Part shown: positions 44,978 through 62,367 of the stretch, piece by piece | How the letters are laid out: each line of letters begins with the position of its first letter | Numbering within the stretch: the first letter of the stretch is position 1 | DNA from: an uncultured Spirochaetales bacterium | Lineage (GTDB): Bacteria > Spirochaetota > GWE2-31-10 > CAYYKD01 | Length of the DNA stretch: 64,000 bases | NCBI GenBank assembly: GCA_964471825.1 | Contig: CAYYKD010000003.1 | Location: 69,601 to 133,600 of the forward strand | Direction of reading: 5' to 3' | Translations under genes and position numbers: made by a program | Notes under the pieces: generated by a model | The model's database searches: none | What the model was told of the DNA's origin: nothing | Seen by the model: the letters and a program-made list of their open reading frames with translations, nothing else

Positions 44978-47512
44978 GTGAGAAAAGTATTATTGTGCGT
45001 GTGTTTGTTATGTGCTGTAACAGGCATTTATTCATATGATATAAATATCAGTGTTATCGACAAAGATATCGATATTCCTCTGGAGGGTGTTAAGTTAACA
45101 CTAATAAAAACGGGGAATAGCGTATCAACCGATAGTAATGGATCTGCAAGGATAACGATCGGAGATGATCAGGGACAGATAGTTGTAGTTGCCTTCCTAA
45201 ATGGCTATGAGACAAAGAGATTTGTACTTAAAAAAGCGGCTGAGGTTCAGATAGTCTCGATGAGTATACAGGGTGTGCTTGAGGGACAGGGTCTTGTTGT
45301 GGAGAGGAAGGCGTTGCAGATTAAGGATGAGAAGTCCGGCGTCTCTACAATGGTAGATAAGCAGGAGATCAAACAGACTACCAAGGGGCCGCTTGAGGAT
45401 ATAATGACAACAATAAAGACTCTACCCGGAGTAAGCTACGCCGGTAAGTTTAGTTCAAGACCATCTGTAAGGGGCGGACATCCATCTGAGGTGTCGGCAT
45501 TACTTGATGGTTTCTTGATTAGAATGCCCTACCATTGGGGCGGTGCATTTTCAATATTCAATCCAAATATTATTGAATCGGTTAAGTTCTCAAATGGCGT
45601 GTTTAGTGCAAGGTATGGTGTAGCAATGAGCGGCCTTATTGAGGTAAACTCGACGACTCCGGATCAGGGAGTTAGATTTGACGGTATATTATCAACTACC
45701 ACTGCCGAGGCTTTTCTTCAGCTACCGTTATGGAAGAATTCCGGCCTATTTGTAGGAGGGCGGGTAACATACCTTGATCCCGTCTTGTTGATCGCTGAGA
45801 GTGCAGTCACAAGTACAGGAACCGCAATTCAGACAGCACCATACATTAGAGATGCCTCATTTAAATGGTTCTGGAAACCCCACGAAAGAGTGGAGTGGTA
45901 TATAAACTCATTTTTCGGGTCAGATGGCGTTGCTCTAAAGAATAAGGATATAGGTGTTGATGACACAAAGACGATCGTGTCTGACTTTAATTTTGGTTAC
46001 TACAAGTACAATACCTTTGTTGTGACCGGCGTTAAGTTTTTGCCGGTTGACAGGTTGTTTATACATATACTTGCAGGCTATGAGTTTCTGTTGAATGGCG
46101 TTGATGGGAAATTTAACGAAAATGGTACTAAGAACTATTCGCAAGAATTTAAGGATCAATATGCAGGGTTTAAATTGGCAATGCCTACACTACCCGATAT
46201 TAATGATAGTTTCTCAGTTAAGAACCTGGGTTCTAACTTTGCCAGATACGATCTTGTACATAGTGCTCAGACTCGTATTGATTTTGATATAACGCTCCAT
46301 GAGAGGGTTCAATTTTCATGCGGAGCAGGTCTTCTCTACGATAATATACTACATAGCGAATCAGGGAAGATGTATTCTATCATTCCTACACAGGGTTTTC
46401 CACTCTACTCTAAGATCACAGTGGATCTTTCTGTAAAGGATAATCTCGTATTTAATTCCTTTACATTTATAAATTTTTTATTTACACCGCTTCCGGGTGT
46501 ACTTGAAATTGAGGCGGGAGTACGGGTTGATCATTTCTATATGCAGGGCAATGATGTGAGTCTTAACACCTATCCTGTGCCAAATCCAAGATTGATGATC
46601 TCCTATACACCTGTAAGAGACAAGAAGTATATTAATAGTCTTACTCTTAGTCTGGGGGTGGGACTATTTTCTAAGATTCCGCTTGAGAGTTCAATCATTG
46701 AAAAGAAGTATGGAATAGATCATTTTGAGGTTCATCAGCCTAAGTCATTAACAGCTATAACCGGTGTTGAGATTAATCTGCCATTGGACTTTAAGATAAA
46801 GGTTGAGGGGTACTACAAGTACTATTTTGATAGATTCTACTTTAATCTTGATACAACAGGTAATCAGACTAAGTTTCTCGTACACTCGGACGGGATTGGA
46901 CATGCGGCAGGTTTTGATGTGCTACTTCAGAGGAAAATCTCAAGATGGGTAGATGGATGGATCTCATATTCGTTTATCTTTGCGAAGTACTACAATCCGG
47001 AAACCGATAATATGCCGTCAAAGACAACATTTCGAGGGGAACCTACAGGGACATGGTATTATCCTTCATATCATAGATGGCACAATATGAATATAGTTCT
47101 AAATATCAAGCCTGTAACATGGTTTACAATATCTTTAGCCCTAGCCCTGGCAAGCGGTAATCCTAAGAAGAGTTTTGAGACAGAGATGTTTCCTGTTCTG
47201 CTTGAAGATGGTCAGACTGTCCTTGAGATGTATCGTGATAAAGGGGTCTACACCGAGAAAGACGGCGATTCATTAAGAACGGGATTTAGTATTCCACTTG
47301 ATTTGACTCTGAGATTTAATGTCTACTTTCCAAAATCTAAGGTCAAAATGGAGGCCTATGTTTCTGTCGAGGATATATTTGTCATGGTCTACTCCGATCA
47401 GGTTAATGCAAAGTCTATTGATAAATACACAGGCAAGGAGTCAACGGGACAGGCTGCATCGTTTAGTGTAGGCATCCCGATCCCAAGTATAGGTATTAAA
47501 ATAAATTTCTAG
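44978..47512 (+). CDS. TonB-dependent-receptor-like outer-membrane beta-barrel protein with N-terminal carboxypeptidase-regulatory-like domain
   Basis: Signal peptide. CarbopepD_reg-like VIDKDIDIPLEGVKLTLIKTGNSVSTDSNGSARI. Plug-like region. Long barrel ending in aromatic ...IKINF. Confidence 0.65.
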   Translation: MRKVLLCVCLLCAVTGIYSYDINISVIDKDIDIPLEGVKLTLIKTGNSVSTDSNGSARITIGDDQGQIVVVAFLNGYETKRFVLKKAAEVQIVSMSIQGVLEGQGLVVERKALQIKDEKSGVSTMVDKQEIKQTTKGPLEDIMTTIKTLPGVSYAGKFSSRPSVRGGHPSEVSALLDGFLIRMPYHWGGAFSIFNPNIIESVKFSNGVFSARYGVAMSGLIEVNSTTPDQGVRFDGILSTTTAEAFLQLPLWKNSGLFVGGRVTYLDPVLLIAESAVTSTGTAIQTAPYIRDASFKWFWKPHERVEWYINSFFGSDGVALKNKDIGVDDTKTIVSDFNFGYYKYNTFVVTGVKFLPVDRLFIHILAGYEFLLNGVDGKFNENGTKNYSQEFKDQYAGFKLAMPTLPDINDSFSVKNLGSNFARYDLVHSAQTRIDFDITLHERVQFSCGAGLLYDNILHSESGKMYSIIPTQGFPLYSKITVDLSVKDNLVFNSFTFINFLFTPLPGVLEIEAGVRVDHFYMQGNDVSLNTYPVPNPRLMISYTPVRDKKYINSLTLSLGVGLFSKIPLESSIIEKKYGIDHFEVHQPKSLTAITGVEINLPLDFKIKVEGYYKYYFDRFYFNLDTTGNQTKFLVHSDGIGHAAGFDVLLQRKISRWVDGWISYSFIFAKYYNPETDNMPSKTTFRGEPTGTWYYPSYHRWHNMNIVLNIKPVTWFTISLALALASGNPKKSFETEMFPVLLEDGQTVLEMYRDKGVYTEKDGDSLRTGFSIPLDLTLRFNVYFPKSKVKMEAYVSVEDIFVMVYSDQVNAKSIDKYTGKESTGQAASFSVGIPIPSIGIKINF

Positions 47513-47561: not shown

Positions 47562-48455
47562 ATGAATATAAATAGAAATAAAAATATTAAAATAATAGTA
47601 AAAAAACTTTTTTCTATAGCTCTAGTAGTTATAGGTATGACAGTTATACCGGCCTGTCAGACGGTTAAAGGTGTTTATAATTATGCAAGGGAGAATCACA
47701 GCGTTAAACTGACAATTACAGAGGATAGCAAGCAGGTTAGAAGGGGTCGCTTGAGCGGAACTTTAATAAGTCCTGCCTATTTTGGCGGAGTTATTTCAAC
47801 GGATTCATCAGGTGATCAAGTTTTGATTGTTGATGAGTTTGGATATTTTACTAACTGGTTTGACGGATGGACTCAAGCCCTGCATGAAGCCGGCGGCTCA
47901 GTAAAGATAGAATTAAACAAGGACAGATCGTTTAACATTGTTGTAAGGGAGGAACTCTTTGTAGGTGAAATAAAAACCGCACAGACACGCTATGCCGATC
48001 TATACTACAAGGGTGATAGAGCAAATGAGTTGTTGAGGAATAGAATAGCAAGAATCAAGTCGGTAAATGAGTATCTCGTTGAATATGGAATGCCTATGTT
48101 CTTTAGTTCAGCTATTTACCCTCCTGTTTTTTCTACATCTAAGAGTGATAAAAAGCAGAAGACATTTTTTGAGGCAACCCGTTCACTACTGTTTCCTGAG
48201 ATGTATCCATTCGGGGCCGTTAAGGTGGACTACCAGGCAAAAAGTACCTATGAGCTTGCCGATTCAATACTCTGGAATAGACAGTATTCAGAGAAGATGT
48301 TTCCTGAACACCTTAGGGATGTGCGAAATGGCGGTTCACTCTATAAGGACTATGAGGAATCAATAGAGTTGTTCTATGTTTTTTACAATCTGGATTATTT
48401 TTTGAGAATGTTAGTTTTAAATACACCATTAAATACACCATTAAATTCACAATGA
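47562..48455 (+). CDS. Hypothetical lipoprotein. C-terminus has tandem LNTP repeat.
   Basis: Signal peptide with lipobox TVIPAC. 12-bp tandem DNA repeat taaatacaccat x2 at the 3' end. Confidence 0.4.
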   Translation: MNINRNKNIKIIVKKLFSIALVVIGMTVIPACQTVKGVYNYARENHSVKLTITEDSKQVRRGRLSGTLISPAYFGGVISTDSSGDQVLIVDEFGYFTNWFDGWTQALHEAGGSVKIELNKDRSFNIVVREELFVGEIKTAQTRYADLYYKGDRANELLRNRIARIKSVNEYLVEYGMPMFFSSAIYPPVFSTSKSDKKQKTFFEATRSLLFPEMYPFGAVKVDYQAKSTYELADSILWNRQYSEKMFPEHLRDVRNGGSLYKDYEESIELFYVFYNLDYFLRMLVLNTPLNTPLNSQ

Positions 48456-48550: not shown

Positions 48551-49030
48551 CTAATTGTAGGCTATTTTTTTTATGATTGTAATAATCCTGTTGTTTATAT
48601 GATACTGTCCAGAAAACTTAAATTCTCCCATTTCAAGACATAATTTTAGTTTAACAGGTAATTCATTAATTTTTTTAATATATTCTTCCACCTTTTCTTT
48701 GATCTTAAGTAAAACGCTCTTGAAACGGCCACGCCAGACTGTACCGAATCGGTTAAATCTTCTGTTAAATCGAATTGAGAAGGACTGCTTAATCCATTGC
48801 ATTACAACTGATATATCTGTTTTACCGATTGTTTGAATTACTATCTGAAACTCATCTTTAAGAATGATGAAATTTTCAATTATAATATCGAATTTGATCA
48901 TTGCCTCTTCCATAACTTCCATAAAAATTGATTGTGTTTCTTCTGAGCAGAGTTTTTGAGCTGTTTCCGGAACAACGCTTGATTTTACAAAATATGTTCC
49001 GCCTTCTACTTTTTCTCGGTTTTTTCTCAT
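48551..49030 (-). CDS. IS200/IS605-family (Y1/HuH, RAYT-like) transposase homologue with HuH histidines substituted. Probably an inactivated or domesticated derivative.
   Basis: Alignable by eye to IS200 TnpA over its whole length: DIIIENFIILKDEFQIVIQ vs ...IIEMQTDKDHIHILAD (H-I-H replaced by E-F-Q), MQWIKQSFSIRFNRRF vs FIKTAKGRSSRILRQEF, TVWRGRF vs TLWTNSCF, and a retained Tyr in the C-terminal helix KVEEYIKKINE vs VVKQYIENQ. Confidence 0.5.
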   Translation of the reverse strand: MRKNREKVEGGTYFVKSSVVPETAQKLCSEETQSIFMEVMEEAMIKFDIIIENFIILKDEFQIVIQTIGKTDISVVMQWIKQSFSIRFNRRFNRFGTVWRGRFKSVLLKIKEKVEEYIKKINELPVKLKLCLEMGEFKFSGQYHINNRIITIIKKIAYN

Positions 49031-49145
49031 AATCTGTCCTTATAATTTGGATTTTTAATATATCACTTAGTTAAAACGATTTTTTTGATTTATTATTTAT
49101 GGAATTGACAAAAGAGTTACAATTTTTTTTTGAAGAATATCAAGC

Positions 49146-49210
49146 GGGACAACCTATTGCCGTTGATAGTGGTTTTTTCACCCAAGACTAGACTGGCATA
49201 GGTTGTCCCC
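49146..49210. repeat. REP-like element, inverted pair (gggacaacctattgcc ... gactagactggcataggttgtcccc) with ~24-nt loop, ~115 bp from the IS200-like gene
   Basis: The arms are reverse-complementary over ~15/16 nt. The right arm is the full 25-nt family consensus. Confidence 0.65.
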
Positions 49211-49389
49211 TACAGATAGTACACAGCCTAGAGTGACAATTCAATTCTTTATCATATTGTAGAGGCTATTGTAGAGAATTAATATTTAGAAATCATATAC
49301 ACAAAACCTTCCACTAAAAATTTATTAAAGACTAATAAAAATATCTTTATAAATTGCATTAATTTAATTTTTTTGTTAAATCTTTCTAT

Positions 49390-51381
49390 ATGGGAAACAA
49401 AAAGCTAAGCCGCTCACTATTACAGTACGATGTTATTACTCTTATTATGATCTATATTATTGTATTTCTAATGTTTGAGGTCTTAATAAAGAATCTTCTT
49501 GTCAATTATAAAGTTGATAGTCTAAACGAGAATCTTGTGTCGCTACAATTGGACTTCTTTGACGCTGTAACCTCACTTGAGGAGAAGTCAATTCTAAGTT
49601 ATGACGAATATATTAGAAATATTATCGACTATTCTAAAAGGTCAACACTCAGCAGACTGAAATATGATAACAGTATTGTTGCAATAGTATTTCCTGATGA
49701 GTATGGGTTAACCACATTTGGCTCAAAGAATAAGTTTGATAGAGTGTTAAACAAAGACAGCTATGGGTTAATCCATCGAGTTCTGTTTAACGGTGATTCA
49801 AATTCCAAGTATTCTTCAAACAAGGGCTCAAAAAACATAAAAAAAAGAGACAAATATATAGAGTTAAATGCTGACAGCTCAGAATATATTGCTATAGCTC
49901 AGATCTCAACGAAGGGGATAAAGTCTGGTTTGGAGCGTAATTCAGATGAGGATATTTACCCGATATTTATTGTTGGTGATAAAAGAGGCGATTTCTTTTA
50001 TATAATTAATCTGGCAGAGATAATATTTATATTCTGGCTTACTGTAGTATTTTTAATATTAGGTACCTTTAAGTTTCTTGCAACCAAGCGATCAACAGTA
50101 CAGATCTACGAATTCAGTAATATGTTGAATGAAGAATCTGAAAATATAACTCAGAAAGGTATAGTTGGCGGTTCATTAAGAAAGATAGAAACAGAGTTTG
50201 TTGAGATAGAGAATCTTAATACAGCATCAGCATCCCTAAGCAATTCCCTTAAAGAGTTAAGAAGAATAGTACAGGGTACAACTACAGAGGAATTTTTTAT
50301 AGGAACAATAACAAATAATAAGAGTATTACTGAACAGCATGATGTTTTTGTTACAGTTATGTTTCTCGATATAAAGGGATTTACGGGTATATCAGAGAAG
50401 CACAAATCAAATGCAATGGTTATTGGTAATACAATTTTTAGTCATGTAGGTAAGATAATCAAGGAACATGGAGGACAGATAAGAAAGCTCCTGGGTGATG
50501 CCGCACTAATAACATTTAAAAATCCACCCGACACCGGTTCAAATTCTGCACTAAATGCGGTTTCTGCCGGCATAAGGATACTAAACGATGTCTCTACGAT
50601 ATGTGACAAGCTTAATGAGTTATTTAACCCTGAAAAATCATCTGATCTCATGATAGATTTCAATTTTAGAATTGGGCTTGATTCGGGTACAATTGGAGAG
50701 GGGCTATACGGTACAGAGGATAATTTTGAGTATGGTATAATCGGTGATGCAGTGAATACGGCATCTAGATTTGAGTCATTAAACAAGCAGTACAATACAA
50801 ATATTTTAGTATCTGATAATACCTATAATGAACTTATAAGTGTGATTGTTTCAATATATGGTATAAAAAATGAGGCAAAATCCATAGAGACGAAGATCGC
50901 GGACACTCTAAAAGTGCGGTGGTTCTGTGTTGATACGGCCAGACCAAAGGGTAAGATTAAGCCAAATAAGATATACACGCTTTCCTATTTACAAAAAGAC
51001 AACCTAAGGTTGCTCGGACAAGGAGAATGCTTTAACATTGAGATTTTTGGAGGTTTCTCAGAACTGCTTGAAAGATTTCATCAGAGCATTCAACTATGGA
51101 AAAAAACAGTTGAACCGGAAAGTGATGCTGCTCTAGTAAACGCTGCTCTAGTAAATGCAAAAAAAGAATGGTCAAATATTGCAAAACATTTTGCTCAATA
51201 CATGATAGACAAAAACTTTAAAGTAGCAGAGCCGTTTCTAAAACTTATATTAAACTATCAGGAGTTCAATCGACTTCAAGCAGACTATGAAGGTTGGAAA
51301 GATAGGGAGATATATGACCTAAAAATTCCATCGTCTGATTGGATTAGCAACCCCTACGGATGCAGGGAGTTGGATAAATGA
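49390..51381 (+). CDS. Membrane-anchored class III adenylate/guanylate cyclase with periplasmic sensor region and ~190-aa C-terminal extension
   Basis: Two TM segments flank a ~170-aa extracytoplasmic region. Cyclase motif VFVTVMFLDIKGFTGISE...LGDAALITF...IGDAVNTASR. Confidence 0.75.
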   Translation: MGNKKLSRSLLQYDVITLIMIYIIVFLMFEVLIKNLLVNYKVDSLNENLVSLQLDFFDAVTSLEEKSILSYDEYIRNIIDYSKRSTLSRLKYDNSIVAIVFPDEYGLTTFGSKNKFDRVLNKDSYGLIHRVLFNGDSNSKYSSNKGSKNIKKRDKYIELNADSSEYIAIAQISTKGIKSGLERNSDEDIYPIFIVGDKRGDFFYIINLAEIIFIFWLTVVFLILGTFKFLATKRSTVQIYEFSNMLNEESENITQKGIVGGSLRKIETEFVEIENLNTASASLSNSLKELRRIVQGTTTEEFFIGTITNNKSITEQHDVFVTVMFLDIKGFTGISEKHKSNAMVIGNTIFSHVGKIIKEHGGQIRKLLGDAALITFKNPPDTGSNSALNAVSAGIRILNDVSTICDKLNELFNPEKSSDLMIDFNFRIGLDSGTIGEGLYGTEDNFEYGIIGDAVNTASRFESLNKQYNTNILVSDNTYNELISVIVSIYGIKNEAKSIETKIADTLKVRWFCVDTARPKGKIKPNKIYTLSYLQKDNLRLLGQGECFNIEIFGGFSELLERFHQSIQLWKKTVEPESDAALVNAALVNAKKEWSNIAKHFAQYMIDKNFKVAEPFLKLILNYQEFNRLQADYEGWKDREIYDLKIPSSDWISNPYGCRELDK

Positions 51382-52907
51382 TAAAAAAAATAATAAGTAA
51401 ATTTAAAAAGCTATCAACGATTCGGTTTGTAAAAGAGTCTCTCTATGGAATTGGAACAGTAGTTTTAATTGTCGCAATAATAGCCTCAATAACAGCATTA
51501 AAAGATAAAAAAAGTCTTATTGTGTTTGAGGATGAACAAAATATTCTGTCATTTTTGAATGATACAGAACGAAAACTTCTAATTGAAGAAAAATCAAAAC
51601 TCGAAAGTGAGTTAAAACTTTTGTATTCTCAAAGATTCAGCCATAGTTCGGCCCTGTCGCAGGAGGAGAAAAAAAGAATATCTGATAAAATTGCGGAAAT
51701 AGAAGAAAAAAAACGACAAAATGAAAGCAGCTATTCAAAAAACAAACAGGAGCTTGACACATTAAAGGCGAAAATGTCAAGTAGTGAAAACCTCCTCAAT
51801 GATATGCAGTTAATAATAAAAAAAACCTCGGATGAACTGGAAAAGGTAAAGAAAGAAAAAGATAATAGTGAGGTTTACTGGAAAAACTATAAGGATTTTT
51901 TAAAAAGCTCTGTAAAAAATGTAGCAGTCTCTACTAACAACGAGTCAAATCTAAATCGTGAGTTCGAAAACAGTGATGGAAAGTTCTTTATCGCCGGCCA
52001 ATTTCAAAAATTGCTTGATATTATCAAACAGTTGAATGAAGATAATAGTAAAAAATCGGCTAGAATTTTAGAACTCGAACAGAGTTTGATTGACGAGTCC
52101 GACTCTAATCGATTGAAGGAATCATCTGTTTCCTCAATAGTATCAATTGAATCACTTCAATCAATCAGAGCGGAAGAATATGAGCAAAATCAGAAGTCTA
52201 TTTCAAAACTTAATGCTGAGATTCTAGATAGAGATGCAGAGATTCTTCGTCTTAAAAATATTATTTTAAAAATAAATACAGAGAAGAGCAACCTTCAGAC
52301 AATACAGGAATCGCATGAAGAAGAGAAGCCCGTTATAGAGATAGATGACAAAGTATTAATACCCGAAAAAAACATTCAGAAAGATATGAATGAATTGGAT
52401 ATTGATTTCTGGAAAGAGAGGAAATACAGTTGGGTTTTTCCGTTGAAGGGCGGTTATGTCGATGATCCAGGTAATATTGAATCAAAATTCGGTTACGAAC
52501 GGCCGGACTCTAATGCATCAAATCCGGGTATATTTATCATTCCAAAGATTGCAAGCGGTGTAAAAGTGCTTTCAATGACTGACGGTGTTATTATAAACTA
52601 TTATTCCTATGTAGGCGGCACCTATGCAATGGAGATTAAGAACGACGATGGAACTATAGCCAGATATTGCTATATCAGCTCTTCGTTAAAGACCGGGACA
52701 AGAGTATCAAAAGCACAGGTTATTGGAATTGTTCTAAATGTAGGCAGTAGATATGGACTCCATATAGAGCTATACCAGGGCACTCTAGGGGGGGCTCTTT
52801 CAAATATAAATAATACTAAGTACAGGTTCGTGGAACCGAAAAACTATATGAGAAGAGGCGACCTTCAAGACCCCTCAGGTATAATGTATTTAAACATTAT
52901 CTATTGA
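51378..52907 (+). CDS. Membrane-anchored coiled-coil protein with C-terminal degenerate LytM/M23 domain (EnvC-like)
   Basis: N-terminal TM. ~300 aa of heptad-rich E/K sequence. C-terminal M23-like fold (GVKVLSMTDGVII...GLHIELYQG) lacking the HxxxD His and the first His of HxH. Start overlaps the cyclase stop (ATGA). Confidence 0.6.
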   Translation: MIKKIISKFKKLSTIRFVKESLYGIGTVVLIVAIIASITALKDKKSLIVFEDEQNILSFLNDTERKLLIEEKSKLESELKLLYSQRFSHSSALSQEEKKRISDKIAEIEEKKRQNESSYSKNKQELDTLKAKMSSSENLLNDMQLIIKKTSDELEKVKKEKDNSEVYWKNYKDFLKSSVKNVAVSTNNESNLNREFENSDGKFFIAGQFQKLLDIIKQLNEDNSKKSARILELEQSLIDESDSNRLKESSVSSIVSIESLQSIRAEEYEQNQKSISKLNAEILDRDAEILRLKNIILKINTEKSNLQTIQESHEEEKPVIEIDDKVLIPEKNIQKDMNELDIDFWKERKYSWVFPLKGGYVDDPGNIESKFGYERPDSNASNPGIFIIPKIASGVKVLSMTDGVIINYYSYVGGTYAMEIKNDDGTIARYCYISSSLKTGTRVSKAQVIGIVLNVGSRYGLHIELYQGTLGGALSNINNTKYRFVEPKNYMRRGDLQDPSGIMYLNIIY

Positions 52908-52964
52908 GCCTCTCGCAAAAATTCAAAATTTATTTTTGAAAGAGGCCTATTGACAGGATGTACT

Positions 52965-53225
52965 ATGCCATTTGTTTACATTGCAAGGTGTTCTGATGAT
53001 ACTCTATATACAGGGACAGCAGTTAATCTTGAGAAACGGATAATGACACACAATGCCGGAAAGGGTGCGAAATATACGAGAGGAAGGATACCTTTAACCG
53101 TTGTTTTTTCAGAGGAGTTTTCAACTCTGGGCGAGGCAATGAAAAGAGAGTCAATCATTAAAAAGATGAGCAGGAATGAAAAGATGCGAATGGCTGAAAT
53201 GCAGGGATCCGGCTTAATTATTTAA
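52965..53225 (+). CDS. GIY-YIG nuclease family protein (YhbQ-like)
   Basis: MPFVYIARCSDDTLYTGTAVNLEKRIMTHN matches the GIY-YIG N-terminus. The ORF track starts at TTG 52950, but the ATG at 52965 gives the canonical N-terminus. Confidence 0.7.
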   Translation: MPFVYIARCSDDTLYTGTAVNLEKRIMTHNAGKGAKYTRGRIPLTVVFSEEFSTLGEAMKRESIIKKMSRNEKMRMAEMQGSGLII

Positions 53226-54476
53226 TTTTTTTTTTGATGATGCGATCTGAGTCTCAATTATTTTCTTTATAGTGTCGGAAGATTCTCCTGTGTTTAACTT
53301 TTTGAAATAGTCCTCGTAGATCACAACTTTATTTCTACCCGATAGCTTTGCGTGATAGAGTGCCTTGTCAGCTCTGCTTAGTAAATCATTAGGGGTGATG
53401 TCCTCAGGATAGAACTCAGATATACCTACACTTATTGTTACTCTAATCTTATCACCGGCAGTATCCTTAATCTCATGGGATTCTATAGCTCTTCTGAGTC
53501 TCTCTGCAGGAATAACAGCATTGCGTGCATTAGTTTCCGGTAATAGAACAAGGAATTCTTCACCGCCATACCGTCCGACAGAGTCAACCTCCCTAAATAT
53601 CCTATGATTCTTTAGTATATCGCCAAATATTCTAAGAACATTATCGCCGACAAGGTGACCATGCAAGTCATTAATGTTCTTAAAAAAATCAATATCGATC
53701 ATTAACACAGAGAATACTCCGTAATGATCAAGAAAATTGCCAACGGATTGGTTATTCCCAAGTAATTCTGAGCATTTATCCGGGTTCTCTTCTTCGATTA
53801 CACTTTTAATACGCCAAAGATCACGCATTGTTCTCTTACTTTCATTCTCAAGTATCTCAACTATTGCTTTTCGATTTAGAATGTTGGTTAGGAAGTCTAT
53901 CTTGCTGATGTTAACGATGTTTTCATATAATTCCTGAATATTTTCTTTTTGCTGCTTAATCAACTCTGTATCAGCAATGTACTTAAATGATTCTACTATA
54001 TAGTTATTGATACGCCCCTCTGTTAGTATTTGACTATAGGCAGACACTAGAAATGAGGTTAGATTTATGATGTATGATATGTCACCTGGATTAGAGGGCA
54101 TAAAAAAAGTAAAATCCCTATCTGATATTATTTTATTAATTGATTGTTCAGACCCCTCTGTAGAGGTAAAGCAGTAAAGTATATGCGGTTTACTAATTTT
54201 ATGATGAGATATAAAATAACTGTGAATTTGATCCTTTCTAACGATGTTTATGAGTTCATGATTTATTGCTATTATTGTATTGCCGGAATATATACTGTCA
54301 TTAAGTTCATTTATAGTTCTTGATAACGATGAAAGATCAGTTAAAACAACTGATATCTCATTGCTATTTACTGCCTTAAAAAACTCACGGTAATTTTCAA
54401 ATAGATCGGTTAGAACGATTAAATATTTTTTCATAGAATAAAAAGTATAATATTTTAAGTATTTTGTAAATACCAT
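53214..54476 (-). CDS. GGDEF-domain diguanylate cyclase with N-terminal receiver-like/unknown domain
   Basis: Active-site GGEEF (RYGGEEFLVLLP) and upstream DxLT-like region. Converges on the GIY-YIG gene and overlaps it by 12 nt. Confidence 0.75.
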   Translation of the reverse strand: MVFTKYLKYYTFYSMKKYLIVLTDLFENYREFFKAVNSNEISVVLTDLSSLSRTINELNDSIYSGNTIIAINHELINIVRKDQIHSYFISHHKISKPHILYCFTSTEGSEQSINKIISDRDFTFFMPSNPGDISYIINLTSFLVSAYSQILTEGRINNYIVESFKYIADTELIKQQKENIQELYENIVNISKIDFLTNILNRKAIVEILENESKRTMRDLWRIKSVIEEENPDKCSELLGNNQSVGNFLDHYGVFSVLMIDIDFFKNINDLHGHLVGDNVLRIFGDILKNHRIFREVDSVGRYGGEEFLVLLPETNARNAVIPAERLRRAIESHEIKDTAGDKIRVTISVGISEFYPEDITPNDLLSRADKALYHAKLSGRNKVVIYEDYFKKLNTGESSDTIKKIIETQIASSKKKLNN

Positions 54477-54510: not shown

Positions 54511-55326
54511 ATGAAAATATCAATAATATTATTACTTACAATTTATTTTTTTAGCTGTTCCGGTCAACACAAAACCCTGGACATAGATCCACCCTCTGTA
54601 GGTTTTGTATTTGCCTCAGGGTACAATTGGGTTATTTCATTTGACGAACCTGTATCGTCTCTCAAGATCGAGTCTGAAAAAGCAGATAAGGTACTTCAAA
54701 TTAACCCGCTCTATCCACAGGCTAATTTTAGTATAGACTCGAGATATTTTCTAAATCACTCTATACCCGTTATCAATGAGAGTGTAAAGCTAAGGTTGAC
54801 ATCAGAGGACACAAGTAGTAATAGTTTAACAGAAGAATTAGTTTTTCCGCCAATCAATCAAAATCCTGCAGATATAAAGATCGTAAAGATAAATACAGTG
54901 AAGAGTGCTAAAAAATCACAATCAATAGTATTAGAAAAAAAACATGGATCACCTGTTGGATTTAAACTGAATCTCTTAAATCATACTTCAAATTGCGGGA
55001 TAGAACTTGAAAGTTATTTAACTGTAAATAAATCCTATGAGTTTAAATCATCCTCAAACTATAATAATTCTGAGATACGACTTACAGCAACATATGGATT
55101 GATATTTATAACAGATAACAATAGTGTAATAACGGATTATTATCTTTACTACGATAGCACAAAGAATGAGATTTCAAAATTGATTATACGAAAAAGATTT
55201 AAGGATTTTATAAGAATCCTACTTGATGGTGGCGTAGAGGAGGAGGAAATTATTATTCATGATATAAATAAAAAAGCGCCCTCTAAAGGACGCCTATTGG
55301 GACAGAAGGGACTCGAACCCTCATAG
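54511..55326 (+). CDS. Hypothetical lipoprotein
   Basis: Signal peptide with lipobox FFSC. The 3' end overlaps tRNA-Leu (opposite strand) by ~29 nt, so the true stop/extent is uncertain. Confidence 0.4.
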   Translation: MKISIILLLTIYFFSCSGQHKTLDIDPPSVGFVFASGYNWVISFDEPVSSLKIESEKADKVLQINPLYPQANFSIDSRYFLNHSIPVINESVKLRLTSEDTSSNSLTEELVFPPINQNPADIKIVKINTVKSAKKSQSIVLEKKHGSPVGFKLNLLNHTSNCGIELESYLTVNKSYEFKSSSNYNNSEIRLTATYGLIFITDNNSVITDYYLYYDSTKNEISKLIIRKRFKDFIRILLDGGVEEEEIIIHDINKKAPSKGRLLGQKGLEPS

Positions 55327-55508: not shown

Positions 55509-57170
55509 TTAAACTATAAAGACACCCTGCCAGTCGGCTGGAGGCGGTTTTTTTAAAAACGCATCGCATCGTTGGATCATAACACTTGATGGGCCGTCAC
55601 CATTTAAGAGTGCAGAGGCAAACTCAAAGGAGGATCTGGCCTTGCCCCACTCTCTTCTCTGATATTTAGCAAAACCATCCTCATAGGTCTCGAGCATATC
55701 GAGAATTGCCTGGGAGACCTCGCCGTTTTTACCGACCAGTTCATATATCCTACCGCCTATAGTTTTACCTTTGACCTGAACTGTATCTATTAATCTGGTA
55801 ACAAATTTACTCCTGATGATAGAGTTAGTTGATTCACTGATGAGTATTCTGGTAGAATATATCTTGTTAAGTGACTCGAGCCTTGAAGACAGGTTCACAT
55901 TGTCTCCTAGTGTTGTATAGTTGAATCTTTCACTATAACCTATGTTACCAACAAAAACCTCACCGGTATTAATTCCAAATCGTGTAACAAATTCAGGATA
56001 ACCTTTTGGCATTATAAGTTTATTGAAATCCTCTTCAAAATGTTTGCAACTTAGAGCTGCATTTGCTGCAAGCTCAGCGTGGTTCTTCATTGTGATAGGA
56101 GCGTTCCAGAAAGCCATAACAGCATCACCGATATATTTGTCAACTGTTCCGTTATTGTCAATAATAGCTCTGGTAATACCCTCAAAATATCTTGACATTA
56201 CTGAGACAAGTTTTTCCGGCAATAGGCTCTCTGAAAGTGTTGTAAAATTTTGAATATCTGAAAACATAATTGTCAGCTCTTTCTTTTCTCCACCAAGGAT
56301 CGCCTCTTTATTATGATCAATCATACTTTTTACGATATCTGACGGGACATATTTAATAAATGATTTAAGACTGGTTTTCATATTTGACAATGCACTTTCT
56401 ACGCTCTCAATCTCTTTGAAAACAGATTTGTTATTTGAGCGATTTAACAATTTCAAGGACTTTATATTGTCAATATCAGCCTCAATGATCTTAAGTGGTG
56501 CGGATATACGAATTGAAAGATACATAGCCACAAGTATCGAAATTAATGAAACAAGACCTGAGATCAGAACAATGGAGAATAGTAGTCTGTTTTCGGTTGC
56601 AATAACATCGGAGGCGGAGATATCAGCTCCAACTACACCGGCAAACTCTCCCGAACTCGTAAATATTGGGGCATAACCTGATATCCAGGTTCCCCATTTA
56701 TCTGTTGAAAAACTATTCTCAATTATAACATTTTTTTTATTTTTAAAAACCTCTAAGAGTTCAGGTGTTGCATCACTATAGACATCTCCGGGGTGTGCAG
56801 CACTATCTATGTCGTTGTCAGAATCAAGAACAAAGTATATTTCATCTTTAAGATTGATATTCATTGTATAGAGGAATTTAATATCTCTTGTTTTCTCTTG
56901 GGCCTTGACTAAAATACTTCTCAACTTCTTATACTCGGATGAGGTCGTCCATGATGAATCTTTTATTCTACTATGCAGGTCACCGTCAATTAATAATGAT
57001 GCAGTGGCCACCGCATTGTATATCTGTTTTGCAAGTTCCTGCCTCAATGATTTTTTTACGCTTATATATGAGGAAGTGCTTAACGCAATAGAGGTTATTA
57101 ATATTAGTACAATAAAACATGACGAAATCCCTAAATTTATCGATAGAGTACCCAATTTCTTATTATTCAT
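55509..57170 (-). CDS. Membrane-anchored class III adenylate/guanylate cyclase with periplasmic Cache-like sensor, HAMP-like linker and conserved C-terminal tail
   Basis: TM, ~170-aa periplasmic domain, TM. Cyclase motifs LTIMFSDIQNFTTLSE...YIGDAVMAFW...LGDNVNLSSR. C-terminal ...PPADWQGVFIV. Confidence 0.8.
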   Translation of the reverse strand: MNNKKLGTLSINLGISSCFIVLILITSIALSTSSYISVKKSLRQELAKQIYNAVATASLLIDGDLHSRIKDSSWTTSSEYKKLRSILVKAQEKTRDIKFLYTMNINLKDEIYFVLDSDNDIDSAAHPGDVYSDATPELLEVFKNKKNVIIENSFSTDKWGTWISGYAPIFTSSGEFAGVVGADISASDVIATENRLLFSIVLISGLVSLISILVAMYLSIRISAPLKIIEADIDNIKSLKLLNRSNNKSVFKEIESVESALSNMKTSLKSFIKYVPSDIVKSMIDHNKEAILGGEKKELTIMFSDIQNFTTLSESLLPEKLVSVMSRYFEGITRAIIDNNGTVDKYIGDAVMAFWNAPITMKNHAELAANAALSCKHFEEDFNKLIMPKGYPEFVTRFGINTGEVFVGNIGYSERFNYTTLGDNVNLSSRLESLNKIYSTRILISESTNSIIRSKFVTRLIDTVQVKGKTIGGRIYELVGKNGEVSQAILDMLETYEDGFAKYQRREWGKARSSFEFASALLNGDGPSSVMIQRCDAFLKKPPPADWQGVFIV

Positions 57171-57821: not shown

Positions 57822-58085
57822 TTACTTTACGATCGGAACATCTTTCTCACTCAGCAAATAGTACTCATAATTCGGTATGTATTTTGCAGGAATGTTTTGT
57901 TCTATCAGATCCTTGATATTTGTAGGAATGTTCCAGTCATCGTTACCGTTGTAAAGAATTATCGGAAAAATATTTGGGAGCTGTCCCTTTTGAGAATTCC
58001 TGTATATCAAATCATAAAGACTCATAATATACAAAAATAGTCTAATAGGTATCGACTTGTCTGGTTTAGATTGAAATTCAAGCAA
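57822..58085 (-). pseudogene. Truncated Rpn-family (PD-(D/E)XK) transposase-like gene fragment, paralogous to the full gene at 9908-10795
   Basis: MLEFQSKPDKSIPIRLF...PIILYNGNDDWNIPTNIKDL parallels FILVEHKSYLPD...PIVFYHGTEKWDIPSEF of the full-length copy. An in-frame TGA lies immediately upstream with no ATG, and the fragment lacks the ~65-aa N-terminus and ~140-aa C-terminus. Confidence 0.55.
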
Positions 58086-60117: not shown

Positions 60118-62367
60118 GTGTTATTAAATAGCCCTATTACAACAGATAGAAACTATATTGTAATATCACCGGTAATATTTTTTTTCATATGGCTTCTATA
60201 TACAGGCGTCTCGGTAAATGCAGATGATAAGATCAAGTTTGCAGCAGGTACTTCAACTGTAGATCATAGCAACTTCAATTCCAAAGGAAGAGTCGATAGT
60301 AGAATAGTAATGGATCAGTTCTTAATGCTGGAGTCGGAGGTTTCAATTGCGGCTCACCTTGGGTTAGATGAGAATACGCCCGGCGTTGTCCGTTACAGGG
60401 GCGGTAAACTTCCTACGAATATTGGCCTAAGACAGCGGCAGTACTCCTTGAAGAGGACATTTAAACTATCAGAGAGCGATAGAGACAGATCATATTCTAT
60501 GTTCATGGGGTTGTCGGAGTATCCCTATAATGTCTATTTAAACAGAATTAAGATATTTACCAAGGGAAGGTTTACTGAGAGATACTACAACTCTAGCATG
60601 CGAGCTGTCTATGGGGTGTACCTTTCACCGGATATACTAAAGTATGGCGGTGAAAATGAGCTTGTATTAGAGATATTTCCAAGGACGGAGAGCTATGGAC
60701 TCGACAGGATCTATATTGATACAACAGATCGGGTGACGGGTGCAGTATTTGTCAGGAACTTTATTGGAATAAATCTTATCCAGGGTGGCTTTGTTCTTTC
60801 ATTATTTATTACTATCTACTTCTTGATCCTCTTCTTTGCTGAGAAGAGATCGAAAAATAAGAACCTTGTATTTGCACTTTTCTGCCTGTCATTTTTCTTT
60901 GCTACAATGGATATCGCCACGCATCATGATACAAATCTAGAATTTATGATGAATAACTTATCGAAATTCGGTCTGATACTATCGTCAGTGTTTATATGCA
61001 GCTTTTTTATGGAGTTCACACAGACATGGAACAAGGTTCGTCTTGTTAGAGTGATTATATATATATTTGGCTTGACTGCAGGGTTTGGGGCGCTATTTCA
61101 ACCTGACAAACCGTCACTAGAGATATGGTTTTCGTATTCAATTTTGCTGGTTATTATTCCGCTTATGATTCTATCTATGGTTGTTCTTGTTGTCGCATTT
61201 ATCAGAGATAGAAGTAAGAATGCATTGTTTTTACTAGGTTCATTTGTTATAATGGTCTGTGCAGTTTCGCACGATATTTCCTATCTGGTACGCTCCCAAT
61301 TGCCATTTGCATGGCTTACTACCTATGGGTATTTTGGCATTGTGATTACTGCATTTGCTTTGCTGGCACAGGAACAGGCTCTTAACTATCACAAATCAAT
61401 ACAGAGTGGAGTAGATCTGTTGATAGACCGTAACAGGATTAGAGCCTTAAATGAGGAGATAATAAAACAGAAGGATTCGTTTTTTCGTTTCGTACCAACT
61501 CAGTTTTTGGAACTTCTTGGCCATAAATCTGTTGTTGACATAAAGGCCGGGGATAGTTCGCTTCGTAAACTTACTGTCCTTTTTTCGGATATCCGTAATT
61601 TTACAACTATTTCTGAGGGCTTAATGCCGATTGAGATATTTGAATTTTTAAATAGCTACCTGTCTAGGATGGAAAATGCTGTCCTAAGAAATAACGGGTT
61701 TGTCGACAAATACATTGGGGACGCTATAATGGCCCTATACTCAAGTGAGAATGATACTGAAAATTCATGTGCGGATAATGCTCTTCGTTCTGTACTGATG
61801 ATCAACATAGAGCTTAGTGAGTTCAATAGATTTATCATATCTAAAGGGTTTTCTTCTGTAAATATCGGCATAGGGATAAACACCGGTGAGGTTACACTTG
61901 GGACTGTCGGCAGTGAGAATAGGCTCGATACAACTGTAATTGGCGATGCTGTAAACCTGGCCTCAAGGCTTGAAACACTTACAAAGCTCTATAGAACAAG
62001 GAATTTGGTCTCAGAGTATACTATAAACAATATCAAGAGCTCCGGGGAGTTTCACTTTCGAATGGTAGATTATCTCTCTGTACCCGGAAGAAAAGCACCT
62101 CTAAGAGTCTATGAACTTCTGGATCCGGTAATTGACAGGTTAAAATATGAGCAGTCTGATGAATTTAAAATTGCACAGACGCACTATCAGAACATGAATT
62201 TTGATGCAGCCATGAATTGTTTTAGGAAGATTAGCCATGAGAATCCTGATGACAATCTTCCTTTACTGTATATGCAGAGATGCAGCGAGCTGATGCAATA
62301 TATTCCTGATAACTGGGACGGGGTTTATAGGATAGACTCAAAAGATAACACCGGCATAAAGATATAA
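60118..62367 (+). CDS. 7TMR-DISM-type receptor adenylate/guanylate cyclase (extracellular domain, 7 TM helices, class III cyclase, conserved C-terminal tail)
   Basis: Signal peptide, ~180-aa extracellular domain, seven hydrophobic helices. Cyclase motifs LTVLFSDIRNFTTISEG...YIGDAIMALY...IGDAVNLASR. C-terminal ...IPDNWDGVYRI. RBS AGAGGAG then GTG start. Confidence 0.8.
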   Translation: MLLNSPITTDRNYIVISPVIFFFIWLLYTGVSVNADDKIKFAAGTSTVDHSNFNSKGRVDSRIVMDQFLMLESEVSIAAHLGLDENTPGVVRYRGGKLPTNIGLRQRQYSLKRTFKLSESDRDRSYSMFMGLSEYPYNVYLNRIKIFTKGRFTERYYNSSMRAVYGVYLSPDILKYGGENELVLEIFPRTESYGLDRIYIDTTDRVTGAVFVRNFIGINLIQGGFVLSLFITIYFLILFFAEKRSKNKNLVFALFCLSFFFATMDIATHHDTNLEFMMNNLSKFGLILSSVFICSFFMEFTQTWNKVRLVRVIIYIFGLTAGFGALFQPDKPSLEIWFSYSILLVIIPLMILSMVVLVVAFIRDRSKNALFLLGSFVIMVCAVSHDISYLVRSQLPFAWLTTYGYFGIVITAFALLAQEQALNYHKSIQSGVDLLIDRNRIRALNEEIIKQKDSFFRFVPTQFLELLGHKSVVDIKAGDSSLRKLTVLFSDIRNFTTISEGLMPIEIFEFLNSYLSRMENAVLRNNGFVDKYIGDAIMALYSSENDTENSCADNALRSVLMINIELSEFNRFIISKGFSSVNIGIGINTGEVTLGTVGSENRLDTTVIGDAVNLASRLETLTKLYRTRNLVSEYTINNIKSSGEFHFRMVDYLSVPGRKAPLRVYELLDPVIDRLKYEQSDEFKIAQTHYQNMNFDAAMNCFRKISHENPDDNLPLLYMQRCSELMQYIPDNWDGVYRIDSKDNTGIKI

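What the first reader, a model, noticed from the sequence alone, without database searches (positions are those of the whole stretch)
49390..52907. Receptor adenylate cyclase translationally coupled (ATGA) to a membrane-anchored coiled-coil protein with a degenerate LytM/M23 domain
The cyclase stop and the downstream start overlap (ATG at 51378, TGA at 51379-51381). The downstream protein has a TM anchor, ~300 aa of heptad-like E/K-rich sequence and a C-terminal M23 fold lacking the zinc-ligand histidines. This is the EnvC/NlpD-type organisation of amidase activators. Fusion of cAMP signalling to a cell-wall hydrolase regulator in one transcription unit is not a described module.
Basis: partly seen in the sequence, partly recalled or inferred. 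Interest (0 to 1): 0.5.

Follow-up and report, generated by a model that had tools for sequence, protein, structure and literature searches.

The report
Receptor cyclase with swappable-head membrane partner
A membrane adenylate cyclase gene and the overlapping gene after it stay together in every related spirochaete genome examined. The second protein is a membrane-tethered helical stalk whose outer tip differs between species and is here a catalytically dead cell-wall peptidase (LytM) domain, so the pair looks like a sensor with an exchangeable co-sensor, not a dedicated cell-wall-hydrolase activator.

Summary
ORF A (49390-51381) is a two-TM receptor-type class III cyclase with all core catalytic residues. 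ORF B (51378-52907) overlaps it by ATGA. ORF B has a signal-anchor TM, a proline-free E/K/S-rich helical stalk and a C-terminal LytM/M23 fold (Pfam above threshold; AF2 pLDDT 92.5; best structural match the EnvC LytM domain). That domain has lost the His, Asp and Glu conserved in its own subfamily.

The interpretation needs revision. In 27 distinct loci with an orthologous cyclase, all Spirochaetota MAGs or metagenome contigs, a same-strand gene follows directly. In 23 of them its TM and first ~230 aa are homologous to ORF B. The C-terminal head varies: BamB-like beta-propeller, TPR, ConA-like lectin fold, nothing, or unknown. The LytM head occurs only in this window. No amidase or FtsEX lies in the window.

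The conserved unit is therefore cyclase plus tethered stalk protein. Most likely the partner is a periplasmic co-sensor or modulator of the cyclase, and here its dead LytM head binds peptidoglycan or a hydrolase. This mechanism is inferred, not shown. I found no description of such a module. I rate it a new variant of a known kind, of moderate interest.

The parts
49390..51381 (+). ORF A: receptor-type class III adenylate cyclase, 663 aa
49411..49509 (+). ORF A TM1 (aa 8-40), preceded by a K/R-rich N-terminus. The conserved FE.(V/I)IKK motif lies at its outer end.
   Evidence: Hydropathy. AF2 long helix 6-65. F29 and I33 invariant, E30 nearly invariant.
49510..49989 (+). ORF A periplasmic alpha/beta sensor domain (aa 41-200), with a lineage-variable insert. 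No Pfam family matches.
   Evidence: AF2 secondary structure: helices 6-65 and 71-89, then strands 96-198. Conserved LEEK..L.Y, YDNS and P..(V/I)..D..DFF motifs and a variable-length insert. No Pfam hit.
49990..50085 (+). ORF A TM2 (aa 201-232)
   Evidence: Hydropathy. AF2 helix 199-256.
50086..50337 (+). ORF A cytoplasmic helical linker (aa 233-316). No HAMP domain detected.
   Evidence: AF2 helices to 256 and 271-293. Invariant G257, F270, E272, L276, L283, L287, L290. Pfam finds no HAMP.
50338..51036 (+). ORF A catalytic cyclase domain (aa 317-549). D327 and D370 are the metal ligands, K366 specifies the base, N456 and R460 stabilise the transition state. G449 sits where CyaB has Thr.
51037..51378 (+). 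ORF A family-specific C-terminal helical extension (aa 550-663), ending in the conserved EL(D/E)K
   Evidence: AF2 helices 550-653. Invariant F563, I567, W570, W594, P647, W651, E660, L661, K663. No Pfam hit.
51364..51369 (+). AGGGAG Shine-Dalgarno-like motif for ORF B, inside the 3' end of ORF A and 8 nt before the ATG
   Evidence: Read directly from the sequence.
51378..51381 (+). ATGA start/stop overlap of ORF B and ORF A
   Evidence: Sequence. The same -4 overlap occurs in L010/L026 and, with the longest-ORF start, in L023. Other family loci have gaps from -82 to +48 nt by longest-ORF starts.
51378..52907 (+). ORF B: bitopic partner protein, 509 aa (signal anchor, conserved stalk, linker, degenerate LytM head)
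   Evidence: ORF. A leave-one-out partner HMM scores it 76 bits against a shuffle maximum of -4.5. An identical protein occurs on two other contigs.
51438..51500 (+). ORF B signal-anchor TM helix (aa 21-41). Predicted topology is N-in, C-out.
   Evidence: Hydropathy. The N-flank is more positive than the C-flank in all 26 partner sequences listed.
51495..51632 (+). Most conserved partner segment: the juxtamembrane motif ll.Dkk......eg.yIl..L...ye..L (aa 40-85). Proposed docking region.
   Evidence: Conservation across 21 distinct partners. L41, D43, L68 and L75 invariant in A2.
51540..52307 (+). ORF B Pro-free, E/K/S-rich helical stalk (aa 55-310), with a conserved break F..N..G.FF near aa 196-205
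   Evidence: Composition and heptad segments. Alignments A2 and A4. Orthologues give weak Pfam hits to coiled-coil families.
52398..52904 (+). ORF B degenerate LytM/M23-like head (aa 341-509). N382 (52521-52523), F386 (52533-52535), Y432 (52671-52673) and G460 (52755-52757) replace the family's H, D, E and M. H462 (52761-52763) and E464 (52767-52769) are kept.
   Evidence: Pfam. Subfamily of 423 representatives and its motif table. AF2 pLDDT 92.5. Foldseek.

Best explanation
ORF A and ORF B are one instance of a conserved two-gene signalling module of Spirochaetota.

Shown: ORF A is a two-TM receptor-type class III cyclase with an intact catalytic site. It is most likely an adenylate cyclase, because Lys366 occupies the base-specifying position. 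ORF B is co-encoded with overlapping stop and start. Its signal anchor and first ~230 residues are homologous to the gene that directly follows every orthologous cyclase. The distal C-terminal head domain differs between lineages. In this window the head is an M23/LytM fold that has lost two of three zinc ligands and the family's catalytic Glu.

Inferred: ORF B is N-in/C-out, so the stalk and head lie in the periplasm. Its TM helix and the highly conserved 45-residue juxtamembrane segment dock onto the TM or periplasmic sensor region of the cyclase dimer. The head binds a periplasmic ligand. Occupancy of the head is transmitted through the stalk and changes cAMP synthesis. The partner thus acts as an exchangeable co-receptor or modulator.

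In this genome the dead LytM head, derived from a family of secreted peptidoglycan hydrolases, would bind peptidoglycan or a peptidoglycan hydrolase. cAMP output would then report cell-wall state. Overlapping translation would help make the two proteins together.
For: Adjacency: a same-strand downstream gene follows the cyclase in all 27 distinct family loci. The gaps run from -82 to +48 nt by longest-ORF starts and include ATGA overlaps.

Homology of the partner N-terminus: a leave-one-out HMM scores ORF B 76 bits, against a shuffle maximum of -4.5. Twenty-three of the 27 loci match the partner HMM. Among 1234 ORFs in 0.91 Mb, all 34 HMM hits are the ORF directly after a family cyclase. None occurs near about 45 unrelated cyclase loci.

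Co-divergence: partner and cyclase distances correlate, Spearman 0.72-0.79.

Head variability: PQQ_2 beta-propeller, TPR, GH43_C2/DUF1349 ConA-like, or none. The M23-like head is found only here. ORF B equals a 344-aa headless partner plus a linker plus LytM.

Topology: the N-flank is more positive than the C-flank in 26 of 26 partner sequences. Relatives of the head carry PG_binding_1, NlpC/P60 or dockerin domains, which marks them as exported.

The strongest partner conservation lies directly after the TM helix.

The cyclase looks catalytically competent: D327, K366, D370, N456 and R460 are invariant.

The LytM fold is present and its site is degenerate.

Two modules with different heads occur in one MAG, Bin_88 (L018 and L031).
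Against: There is no direct evidence of a physical interaction or of the direction of signalling.

Topology is predicted only.

The cyclase already has its own periplasmic domain, so a co-sensor is not strictly required.

Several partners have no recognisable head. For those, a ligand-binding role must reside in the stalk or be absent.

The reverse test, whether partner homologues exist without a cyclase, could not be made. The database search with the partner profile returned nothing.

Heptad periodicity of the stalk is only modest, and no structure prediction of the stalk was possible.

Binding of peptidoglycan by this dead LytM domain is untested.
Confidence: 0.5

Rival explanations
1. Scaffold or localisation factor. 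The partner carries no signal. It anchors or positions the cyclase at a particular envelope site, and the heads are attachment domains. Here the dead LytM domain would pin the complex to peptidoglycan.
For: The adjacency and homology data are the same as for the best explanation. Many partners are stalk-only. Degenerate LytM domains are used as binding and localisation modules in SpoIIQ and DipM, which are among the structural matches.
Against: Beta-propeller, TPR and lectin-like heads are diverse for a mere anchor. Two modules with different heads in one genome (L018, L031) fit input diversification better. Nothing tested here separates anchoring from signalling.
Confidence: 0.2
2. One reading: an EnvC-type hydrolase activator driven from inside. 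The cyclase plays the role of FtsEX. Nucleotide binding or catalysis in the cytoplasm changes the periplasmic side, releasing the dead LytM domain of ORF B to activate an amidase.
For: ORF B has a helical stalk plus a C-terminal degenerate LytM domain. EnvC is the top structural match. EnvC is controlled through its coiled coil by the periplasmic domain of a membrane partner (PMC7668044). The stop and start codons overlap.
Against: The LytM head is absent from all other members of the module. ORF B matches no EnvC, NlpD or ActS model. No amidase or FtsEX is in the window. Inside-out mechanotransmission is not known for class III cyclases (my own knowledge).
Confidence: 0.1
3. Co-expression only. 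The two proteins work in the same physiological context but do not touch. The operon link reflects shared regulation.
For: All evidence for coupling is genomic. No interaction was tested.
Against: The pair is kept, with near-zero spacing, across cyclase divergence down to 26-45% identity in 27 loci, while all other neighbours change. The partner's most conserved part is its membrane-proximal segment rather than its head.
Confidence: 0.12
4. ORF B is an active M23 peptidoglycan endopeptidase that uses an unusual set of ligands.
For: H462 and E464 of the MLHLE motif are retained. The fold is intact.
Against: N382, F386 and Y432 replace residues conserved in about 85-97% of the 152 subfamily sequences aligned. 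Y432 is unique among the 152. Phe and Asn at the HxxxD positions cannot supply the missing zinc ligands (established M23 chemistry).
Confidence: 0.03

Closest known systems
EnvC with FtsEX (E. coli; PMC7668044)
   Same: A periplasmic coiled-coil protein with a C-terminal LytM domain lacking catalytic zinc ligands. It is controlled through its coiled coil by the periplasmic domain of a membrane protein complex. The EnvC LytM domain is the best structural match of the ORF B head.
   Different: Here the partner is a class III cyclase, not an ABC transporter. ORF B is probably membrane-anchored rather than soluble. It shares no sequence-level family membership with EnvC. The LytM head is dispensable in orthologues. 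The likely signal direction is outside-in. No amidase link was found.
SpoIIQ (B. subtilis), DipM (Caulobacter), Csd2 (H. pylori): non-catalytic LytM domains used for binding
   Same: An M23 fold with an incomplete zinc site, used as a protein- or peptidoglycan-binding module. SpoIIQ is also a bitopic protein with an N-terminal TM helix. All appear among the structural matches.
   Different: None of them has a long stalk encoded with a cyclase. ORF B belongs to a different M23 subfamily, with the motifs H..D / Y.E / MLHLE.
YycH/YycI accessory proteins of the WalK histidine kinase (Firmicutes; PMC7355866, PMC5013275)
   Same: Accessory membrane proteins of WalK that modulate WalRK activity (abstracts seen). 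That they are N-terminally anchored, extracytoplasmic and encoded directly after the sensor gene is my own knowledge. This is the closest functional analogy to the proposed co-sensor role.
   Different: The sensor there is a histidine kinase, not a cyclase. There is no sequence or fold relationship, no long stalk and no exchangeable head domains.
NsrA with the CHASE2 cyclases CyaD1/CyaD2/CyaK of Sinorhizobium meliloti (PMC7529298)
   Same: A precedent that receptor-type class III cyclases can depend on a separate envelope protein for signal perception (abstract seen).
   Different: NsrA is an outer-membrane-associated protein (PMC7529298 abstract). From my own knowledge it is a beta-barrel protein, not a tethered inner-membrane stalk, and is not encoded overlapping a cyclase gene. 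It is unrelated in sequence.
CyaB of P. aeruginosa (class IIIb adenylate cyclase, PDB 3r5g)
   Different: CyaB has Thr where ORF A has Gly449. From my own knowledge CyaB carries a MASE2 membrane domain rather than two TM helices flanking a periplasmic domain, and it has no C-terminal helical extension and no co-encoded stalk partner.

Membership tests
Class III nucleotidyl cyclase (PF00211) | Profile match above the curated threshold, and the cyclase fold | tested here: met
Class III nucleotidyl cyclase (PF00211) | Two metal-binding Asp residues, and the transition-state Asn and Arg | tested here: met
   D327, D370, N456 and R460 are invariant in 12 orthologues and align to CyaB.
Adenylate-specific class III cyclase | Base-specifying Lys plus Asp or Thr | tested here: inconclusive
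   K366 is present and invariant. The second position is G449 (CyaB has T; the Cya2 guanylate cyclase has E plus G). Lys argues for ATP, but specificity was not measured.
Peptidase M23 / LytM fold | Profile match above threshold, and the fold | tested here: met
   34.4 bits against 28.7. AF2 pLDDT 92.5. Foldseek E 2.7e-7 to 4bh5_A and many other M23 structures.
Catalytically active M23 metallopeptidase | HxxxD and HxH zinc and catalytic residues (in this subfamily: H382, D386, E432, H462) | tested here: not met
   N382, F386, Y432 and G460; only H462 is kept.
EnvC/NlpD-type amidase activator | Extracytoplasmic helical region plus a C-terminal LytM domain with a defective zinc site | tested here: met
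   The resemblance is architectural only.
EnvC/NlpD-type amidase activator | Sequence membership in the curated EnvC, NlpD or ActS families | tested here: not met
   NCBIfam gives only a 14.6-bit hit to an unrelated hydrolase model.
EnvC/NlpD-type amidase activator | Functional or genomic link to FtsEX or an amidase | tested here: not met
   No FtsX, FtsE or Amidase_3 among the window ORFs of at least 150 aa, nearly all of which have a Pfam result (three went unscanned), or next to any orthologous pair. The rest of the genome could not be examined.
EnvC/NlpD-type amidase activator | Activation of an amidase through the LytM groove | not testable with these tools
   Requires biochemistry.
Cyclase-associated stalk partner (family defined here) | Encoded directly downstream of, and on the same strand as, an orthologue of the ORF A cyclase | tested here: met
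   True of 27 of 27 distinct loci.
Cyclase-associated stalk partner (family defined here) | N-terminal signal anchor followed by the juxtamembrane motif ll.Dkk......eg.yIl..L and a helical stalk | tested here: met
   ORF B scores 76 bits against an HMM built without it. Motif. TM and flanking charge.
Cyclase-associated stalk partner (family defined here) | Physical complex with the cyclase | not testable with these tools
   No multimer prediction or experiment was available.

The most novel reading that the evidence does not exclude
A family of spirochaete receptor adenylate cyclases delegates ligand recognition to a co-translated, membrane-tethered stalk protein. The periplasmic head of that protein has been swapped repeatedly during evolution (beta-propeller, TPR, lectin fold, dead LytM). 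In this organism the dead LytM head makes cAMP synthesis a direct read-out of peptidoglycan state. This would be a modular 'plug-in receptor' design not described for class III cyclases.
Probability: 0.3. Interest if true: 0.75.

Novelty: new variant of a known kind. Interest (0 to 1): 0.55.

Why it matters
Most bacterial class III cyclases have unknown inputs, and very few are known to depend on an accessory protein. A conserved cyclase-partner pair with interchangeable periplasmic heads gives a concrete, testable route to those inputs. The head domains name candidate ligand classes, and head swaps predict changed specificity. The LytM-headed version would link cAMP to cell-wall state and would add a new use of catalytically dead LytM domains. 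If the partner only anchors the cyclase, the finding is still a clean new gene-pair family but of narrower interest.

Tried and rejected
- A database search with the partner N-terminal alignment (A2) returned nothing at E <= 1e-3, probably because low-complexity candidates swamped it. Whether partner homologues occur without a cyclase stays open.
- A profile search of A2 against PDB sequences gave no hits.
- The promoter and terminator scan of 48900-53500 found no more sites than shuffles, and no + strand terminator between or after the genes. It is uninformative about the transcript.
- The Fourier test for heptad periodicity gave only modest support. I therefore describe the region as a helical stalk with heptad-compatible segments, not as a proven coiled coil.
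- The region-wise mirror-tree test showed that all cyclase regions co-vary similarly with the partner (rho 0.72-0.79). It supports co-inheritance but does not locate a contact region.
- GC and GC3 of the LytM segment (0.385) against the stalk (0.318 and 0.294) differ no more than amino-acid composition would explain. There is no evidence of recent transfer.
- The split cyclase in the JGI contig L001 is caused by two compensating 1-nt indels at 50799 and 50812, while the ENA contig is identical to the window. I treat it as an assembly artefact or micro-variant, not a pseudogene.
- Literature searches for a cyclase plus LytM or coiled-coil partner found only EnvC and two-hybrid-method papers.
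- I rejected membership in the EnvC/NlpD family and an active-peptidase reading.
Full report
**Observation**

The ORF listing gives ORF A at 49390..51381 (+, 663 aa) and ORF B at 51378..52907 (+, 509 aa). The DNA reads ...GAG TTG GAT AAA TGA with ATG at 51378-51380. The stop of A and the start of B therefore overlap as ATGA at 51378-51381. An AGGGAG motif lies at 51364-51369, 8 nt upstream of the ATG.

ORF A matches Pfam Guanylate_cyc (E 5e-17, aa 320-482). ORF B matches Peptidase_M23 (34.4 bits, threshold 28.7, aa 391-467).

Hydropathy shows two TM segments in A (aa 8-40 and 201-232) and one in B (aa ~17-43).

ORF B residues 55-310 have no proline, two glycines and 41% charged or Gln residues, with heptad-compatible stretches at 116-160, 203-239 and 265-309. 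Global 3.5-residue periodicity is only modestly above shuffles. The description is therefore accurate, with 'coiled coil' best read as 'helical stalk with heptad segments'.

**The LytM domain**

An exhaustive search with aa 330-509 found 423 representative proteins at E <= 1e-3. Aligning the best 150 defines a distinct M23 subfamily. Its conserved motifs are W..P, FG..R, H382xxxD386, RY.E432, M460-L-H462-L-E464.Y and RR.DL.DP.

MLHLE corresponds to the canonical HLHFE, as in the alignment to 9k2v_E. The subfamily therefore keeps the three zinc ligands (H, D, H) and replaces the two auxiliary His residues by Glu and Met.

ORF B has N382, F386, Y432 and G460 and retains only H462 and E464. Y432 is unique among the 152 sequences. 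The domain is degenerate even by the standard of its own family.

An AlphaFold model built with 60 homologues has pLDDT 92.5 and pTM 0.88. Foldseek against the PDB gives the EnvC LytM domain (4bh5_A, E 2.7e-7), followed by StM23, EnvC-AmiB, DipM, ShyA, Csd1/2 and SpoIIQ.

Other subfamily members carry PG_binding_1 repeats, NlpC/P60, dockerin, Flg_new or BACON domains, which marks them as exported cell-wall or surface proteins. The nearest relatives (47-48% identity, Spirochaetes bacterium GWD1_27_9) have two PG_binding_1 domains, an intact H/D/E/H set and no cyclase nearby.

**The cyclase**

Twelve full-length orthologues (33-45% identity) align over the whole length. D327, K366, D370, N456 and R460 are invariant and align with the catalytic residues of P. 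aeruginosa CyaB. The second specificity position is G449, where CyaB has Thr and the Cya2 guanylate cyclase has Glu plus Gly. An adenylate cyclase is likely but not proven.

The AF2 model (pLDDT 79) shows these elements:
- a long TM1 helix;
- an alpha/beta periplasmic domain (aa ~66-198) with no Pfam match;
- TM2 running into cytoplasmic helices;
- the catalytic domain (317-549);
- a family-specific helical C-terminal domain (550-653).

**Conservation of the pair**

This is the key result. For eight orthologous cyclases looked up by exact sequence, the next gene is always on the same strand and close by: -32, -4, +2, +2, +10, +10, +34 and +48 nt.

A scan of one genome per GTDB species found 18 full-length orthologues, all in Spirochaetota MAGs (Spirochaetales, Brevinematales and unclassified). 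A JGI metagenome scan added more. After removing duplicates there are 27 distinct loci, and every one has a directly following same-strand ORF.

The N-terminal ~230 residues of these ORFs are collinear with ORF B (alignment A2). An HMM built from seven of them without ORF B scores ORF B at 76 bits, whereas 1000 shuffles reach at most -4.5. Twenty-three of the 27 loci match the family HMM at E < 1e-3. The other four (L029, L033, L063, L065) have the same TM-plus-helical architecture but are too divergent to match.

As a specificity control, the HMM was run against all 1234 ORFs of at least 120 aa in the 0.91 Mb of sequence held. All 34 hits are the ORF directly after a family cyclase. None lies near the ~45 unrelated cyclase loci or elsewhere in the window.

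Partner and cyclase distances co-vary (Spearman 0.72-0.79), consistent with inheritance as a unit.

**What varies**

Pfam classifies the C-terminal parts of the partners as follows:

| Head type | Loci |
|---|---|
| PQQ_2/BamB-like beta-propeller | L015/L017, L020, L021, L022 |
| TPR | L011, L013, L018, L019, L024 |
| GH43_C2/DUF1349 ConA-like | L025 |
| Nothing beyond helical sequence | L010, L014, L016, L029, L031-L033 |
| No match | L012, L027, L028 |

An HMM of the M23-like subfamily and a tblastn of the ORF B head find no such domain in any other locus.

The closest cyclase clade (41-45% identity) has 344-345-aa headless partners. ORF B aligns to them end to end and then continues with a linker and the LytM domain. 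The LytM head is therefore a lineage-specific addition to a conserved stalk protein.

One MAG (Bin_88) carries two modules with different partners (L018 with a TPR head, L031 helical only).

**Topology and the conserved contact candidate**

In all 26 partner sequences listed, the short N-terminal flank is more positive than the C-terminal flank of the single TM helix. The head types are typical of extracytoplasmic proteins. Together these predict N-in/C-out.

The strongest conservation across 21 distinct partners is the 45 residues directly after the TM helix, ll.Dkk......eg.yIl..L...ye..L, with L41 and D43 invariant in A2. The cyclase has a conserved charged motif, FE.(V/I)IKK, at the outer end of TM1. 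That these two motifs contact each other is my inference.

**Mechanism**

Shown:
- a conserved, tightly linked gene pair;
- an apparently competent receptor cyclase;
- a conserved stalk with exchangeable heads;
- in this window, a dead LytM head.

Inferred: the partner docks on the cyclase through its TM and juxtamembrane region and modulates cAMP synthesis according to what the head binds. Here that would be peptidoglycan or a peptidoglycan hydrolase.

The nearest functional analogies are:
- YycH/YycI with WalK (PMC7355866, PMC5013275);
- EnvC docking by its coiled coil on the FtsX periplasmic domain (PMC7668044);
- NsrA-dependent signalling of S. meliloti cyclases (PMC7529298).

Four rivals remain: a pure anchoring role, an EnvC-like inside-out activator, mere co-expression, and a still-active peptidase. 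The last is contradicted by the motif losses. The EnvC-like reading is weakened by three results: the LytM head is absent from all orthologous modules, ORF B matches no EnvC, NlpD or ActS model, and the window contains no amidase or FtsEX.

**Context**

The window is a chromosomal stretch of an uncultured Spirochaetota genome. Identical ORF B copies occur on a JGI contig from sample 3300020048 and an ENA contig from ERZ27262924. The window is rich in signalling genes:
- four class III cyclases;
- a GGDEF protein;
- an HD_5 protein;
- two hybrid kinases.

It also carries RelA/SpoT, MurJ and an Rnf operon.

No neighbour other than the partner is conserved around the orthologous cyclases.

**Novelty and verdict**

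Full-text searches found no description of a class III cyclase co-encoded with a LytM or stalk partner.

The LytM domain alone is a new member of a known kind, the degenerate LytM domains. The conserved cyclase-stalk module with swappable heads is, as far as I can tell, an undescribed variant of the 'membrane sensor plus accessory protein' theme.

The evidence is entirely comparative. Interaction, topology, ligand and signal direction all remain to be tested.

- Interest: 0.55.
- Confidence that the conserved two-gene module is real: about 0.9.
- Confidence in the co-sensor mechanism: about 0.5.

Noticed in passing
window 47-1891 (+), 55509-57170 (-), 60118-62367 (+), 53214-54476 (-), 29350-31188 (+): The window is dense in cyclic-nucleotide signalling genes. 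Besides ORF A there are three more class III cyclases, one of them fused to a 7TMR-DISM_7TM domain. There is also a GGDEF protein converging on the ORF B/GIY-YIG end, and an HD_5 (HD-GYP-like) protein. None of the other cyclases has a stalk partner.
   Followed up: partly
window 48551-49030 (-): An IS200-like Y1 transposase-family ORF (Pfam Y1_Tnp, E 1.5e-7) lies directly upstream of the cyclase, on the opposite strand. It is not present next to the orthologous cyclases.
   Followed up: partly
window 52950-53225 (+): A small stand-alone GIY-YIG protein (91 aa) starts 42 nt after ORF B on the same strand, with no terminator-like site between them. Its 3' end overlaps the 3' end of the convergent GGDEF gene (53214). 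It may be co-transcribed with the pair, but it is not conserved in other loci.
   Followed up: partly
ORF B aa 341-509 (window 52398-52904) and proteins P0002-P0152: The head belongs to an M23 subfamily with at least 423 representatives. In it the two auxiliary catalytic His residues of canonical M23 enzymes are replaced by Glu (RY.E) and Met (MLHLE), while the H/D/H zinc ligands are kept. About 10% of members have independently lost the HxxxD pair (A/F, A/Y or A/L). I found no curated model specific to this subfamily (NCBIfam).
   Followed up: partly
L001 (JGI Ga0207193_1001023), equivalent to window 50799 and 50812: Two compensating 1-nt indels split the cyclase into 472-aa and 179-aa calls on this otherwise identical contig. 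The 844-aa Plug-domain protein upstream (window 44978-47512) is likewise called as two genes there. These look like assembly errors.
   Followed up: yes
window 50734-50736 (ORF A G449) and 50485-50487 (K366): The base-specificity pair of this cyclase family is Lys plus Gly. This differs from the Lys+Asp or Lys+Thr of characterised adenylate cyclases and the Glu+Gly of the Cya2 guanylate cyclase, so nucleotide specificity deserves a direct test.
   Followed up: partly
window 51037-51378 (ORF A aa 550-663): This is a conserved ~115-aa helical C-terminal domain with invariant Trp residues and an invariant EL(D/E)K C-terminus. It is specific to this cyclase family and matches no Pfam family. Its function is unknown.
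   Followed up: no
window 9908-10795 (-) and 57822-58085 (-): There is one full-length Transposase_31 (YhgA-like PD-(D/E)XK) ORF (Pfam). A second, short ORF on the opposite side of the region lies where the equivalent L001 gene is called Transposase_31.
   Followed up: no
window 44978-47512 (+), 47562-48455 (+), 54511-55326 (+): A Plug-domain outer-membrane receptor-like protein is followed by a 297-aa ORF with no Pfam match. A separate 271-aa ORF also has no Pfam match. Both small ORFs have a hydrophobic N-terminus followed by a Cys, which looks lipoprotein-like.
   Followed up: no
L018 and L031 (both from MAG Spirochaetota bacterium Bin_88): One genome carries two copies of the cyclase-partner module, with different partner C-termini (TPR versus helical only).
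   Followed up: partly
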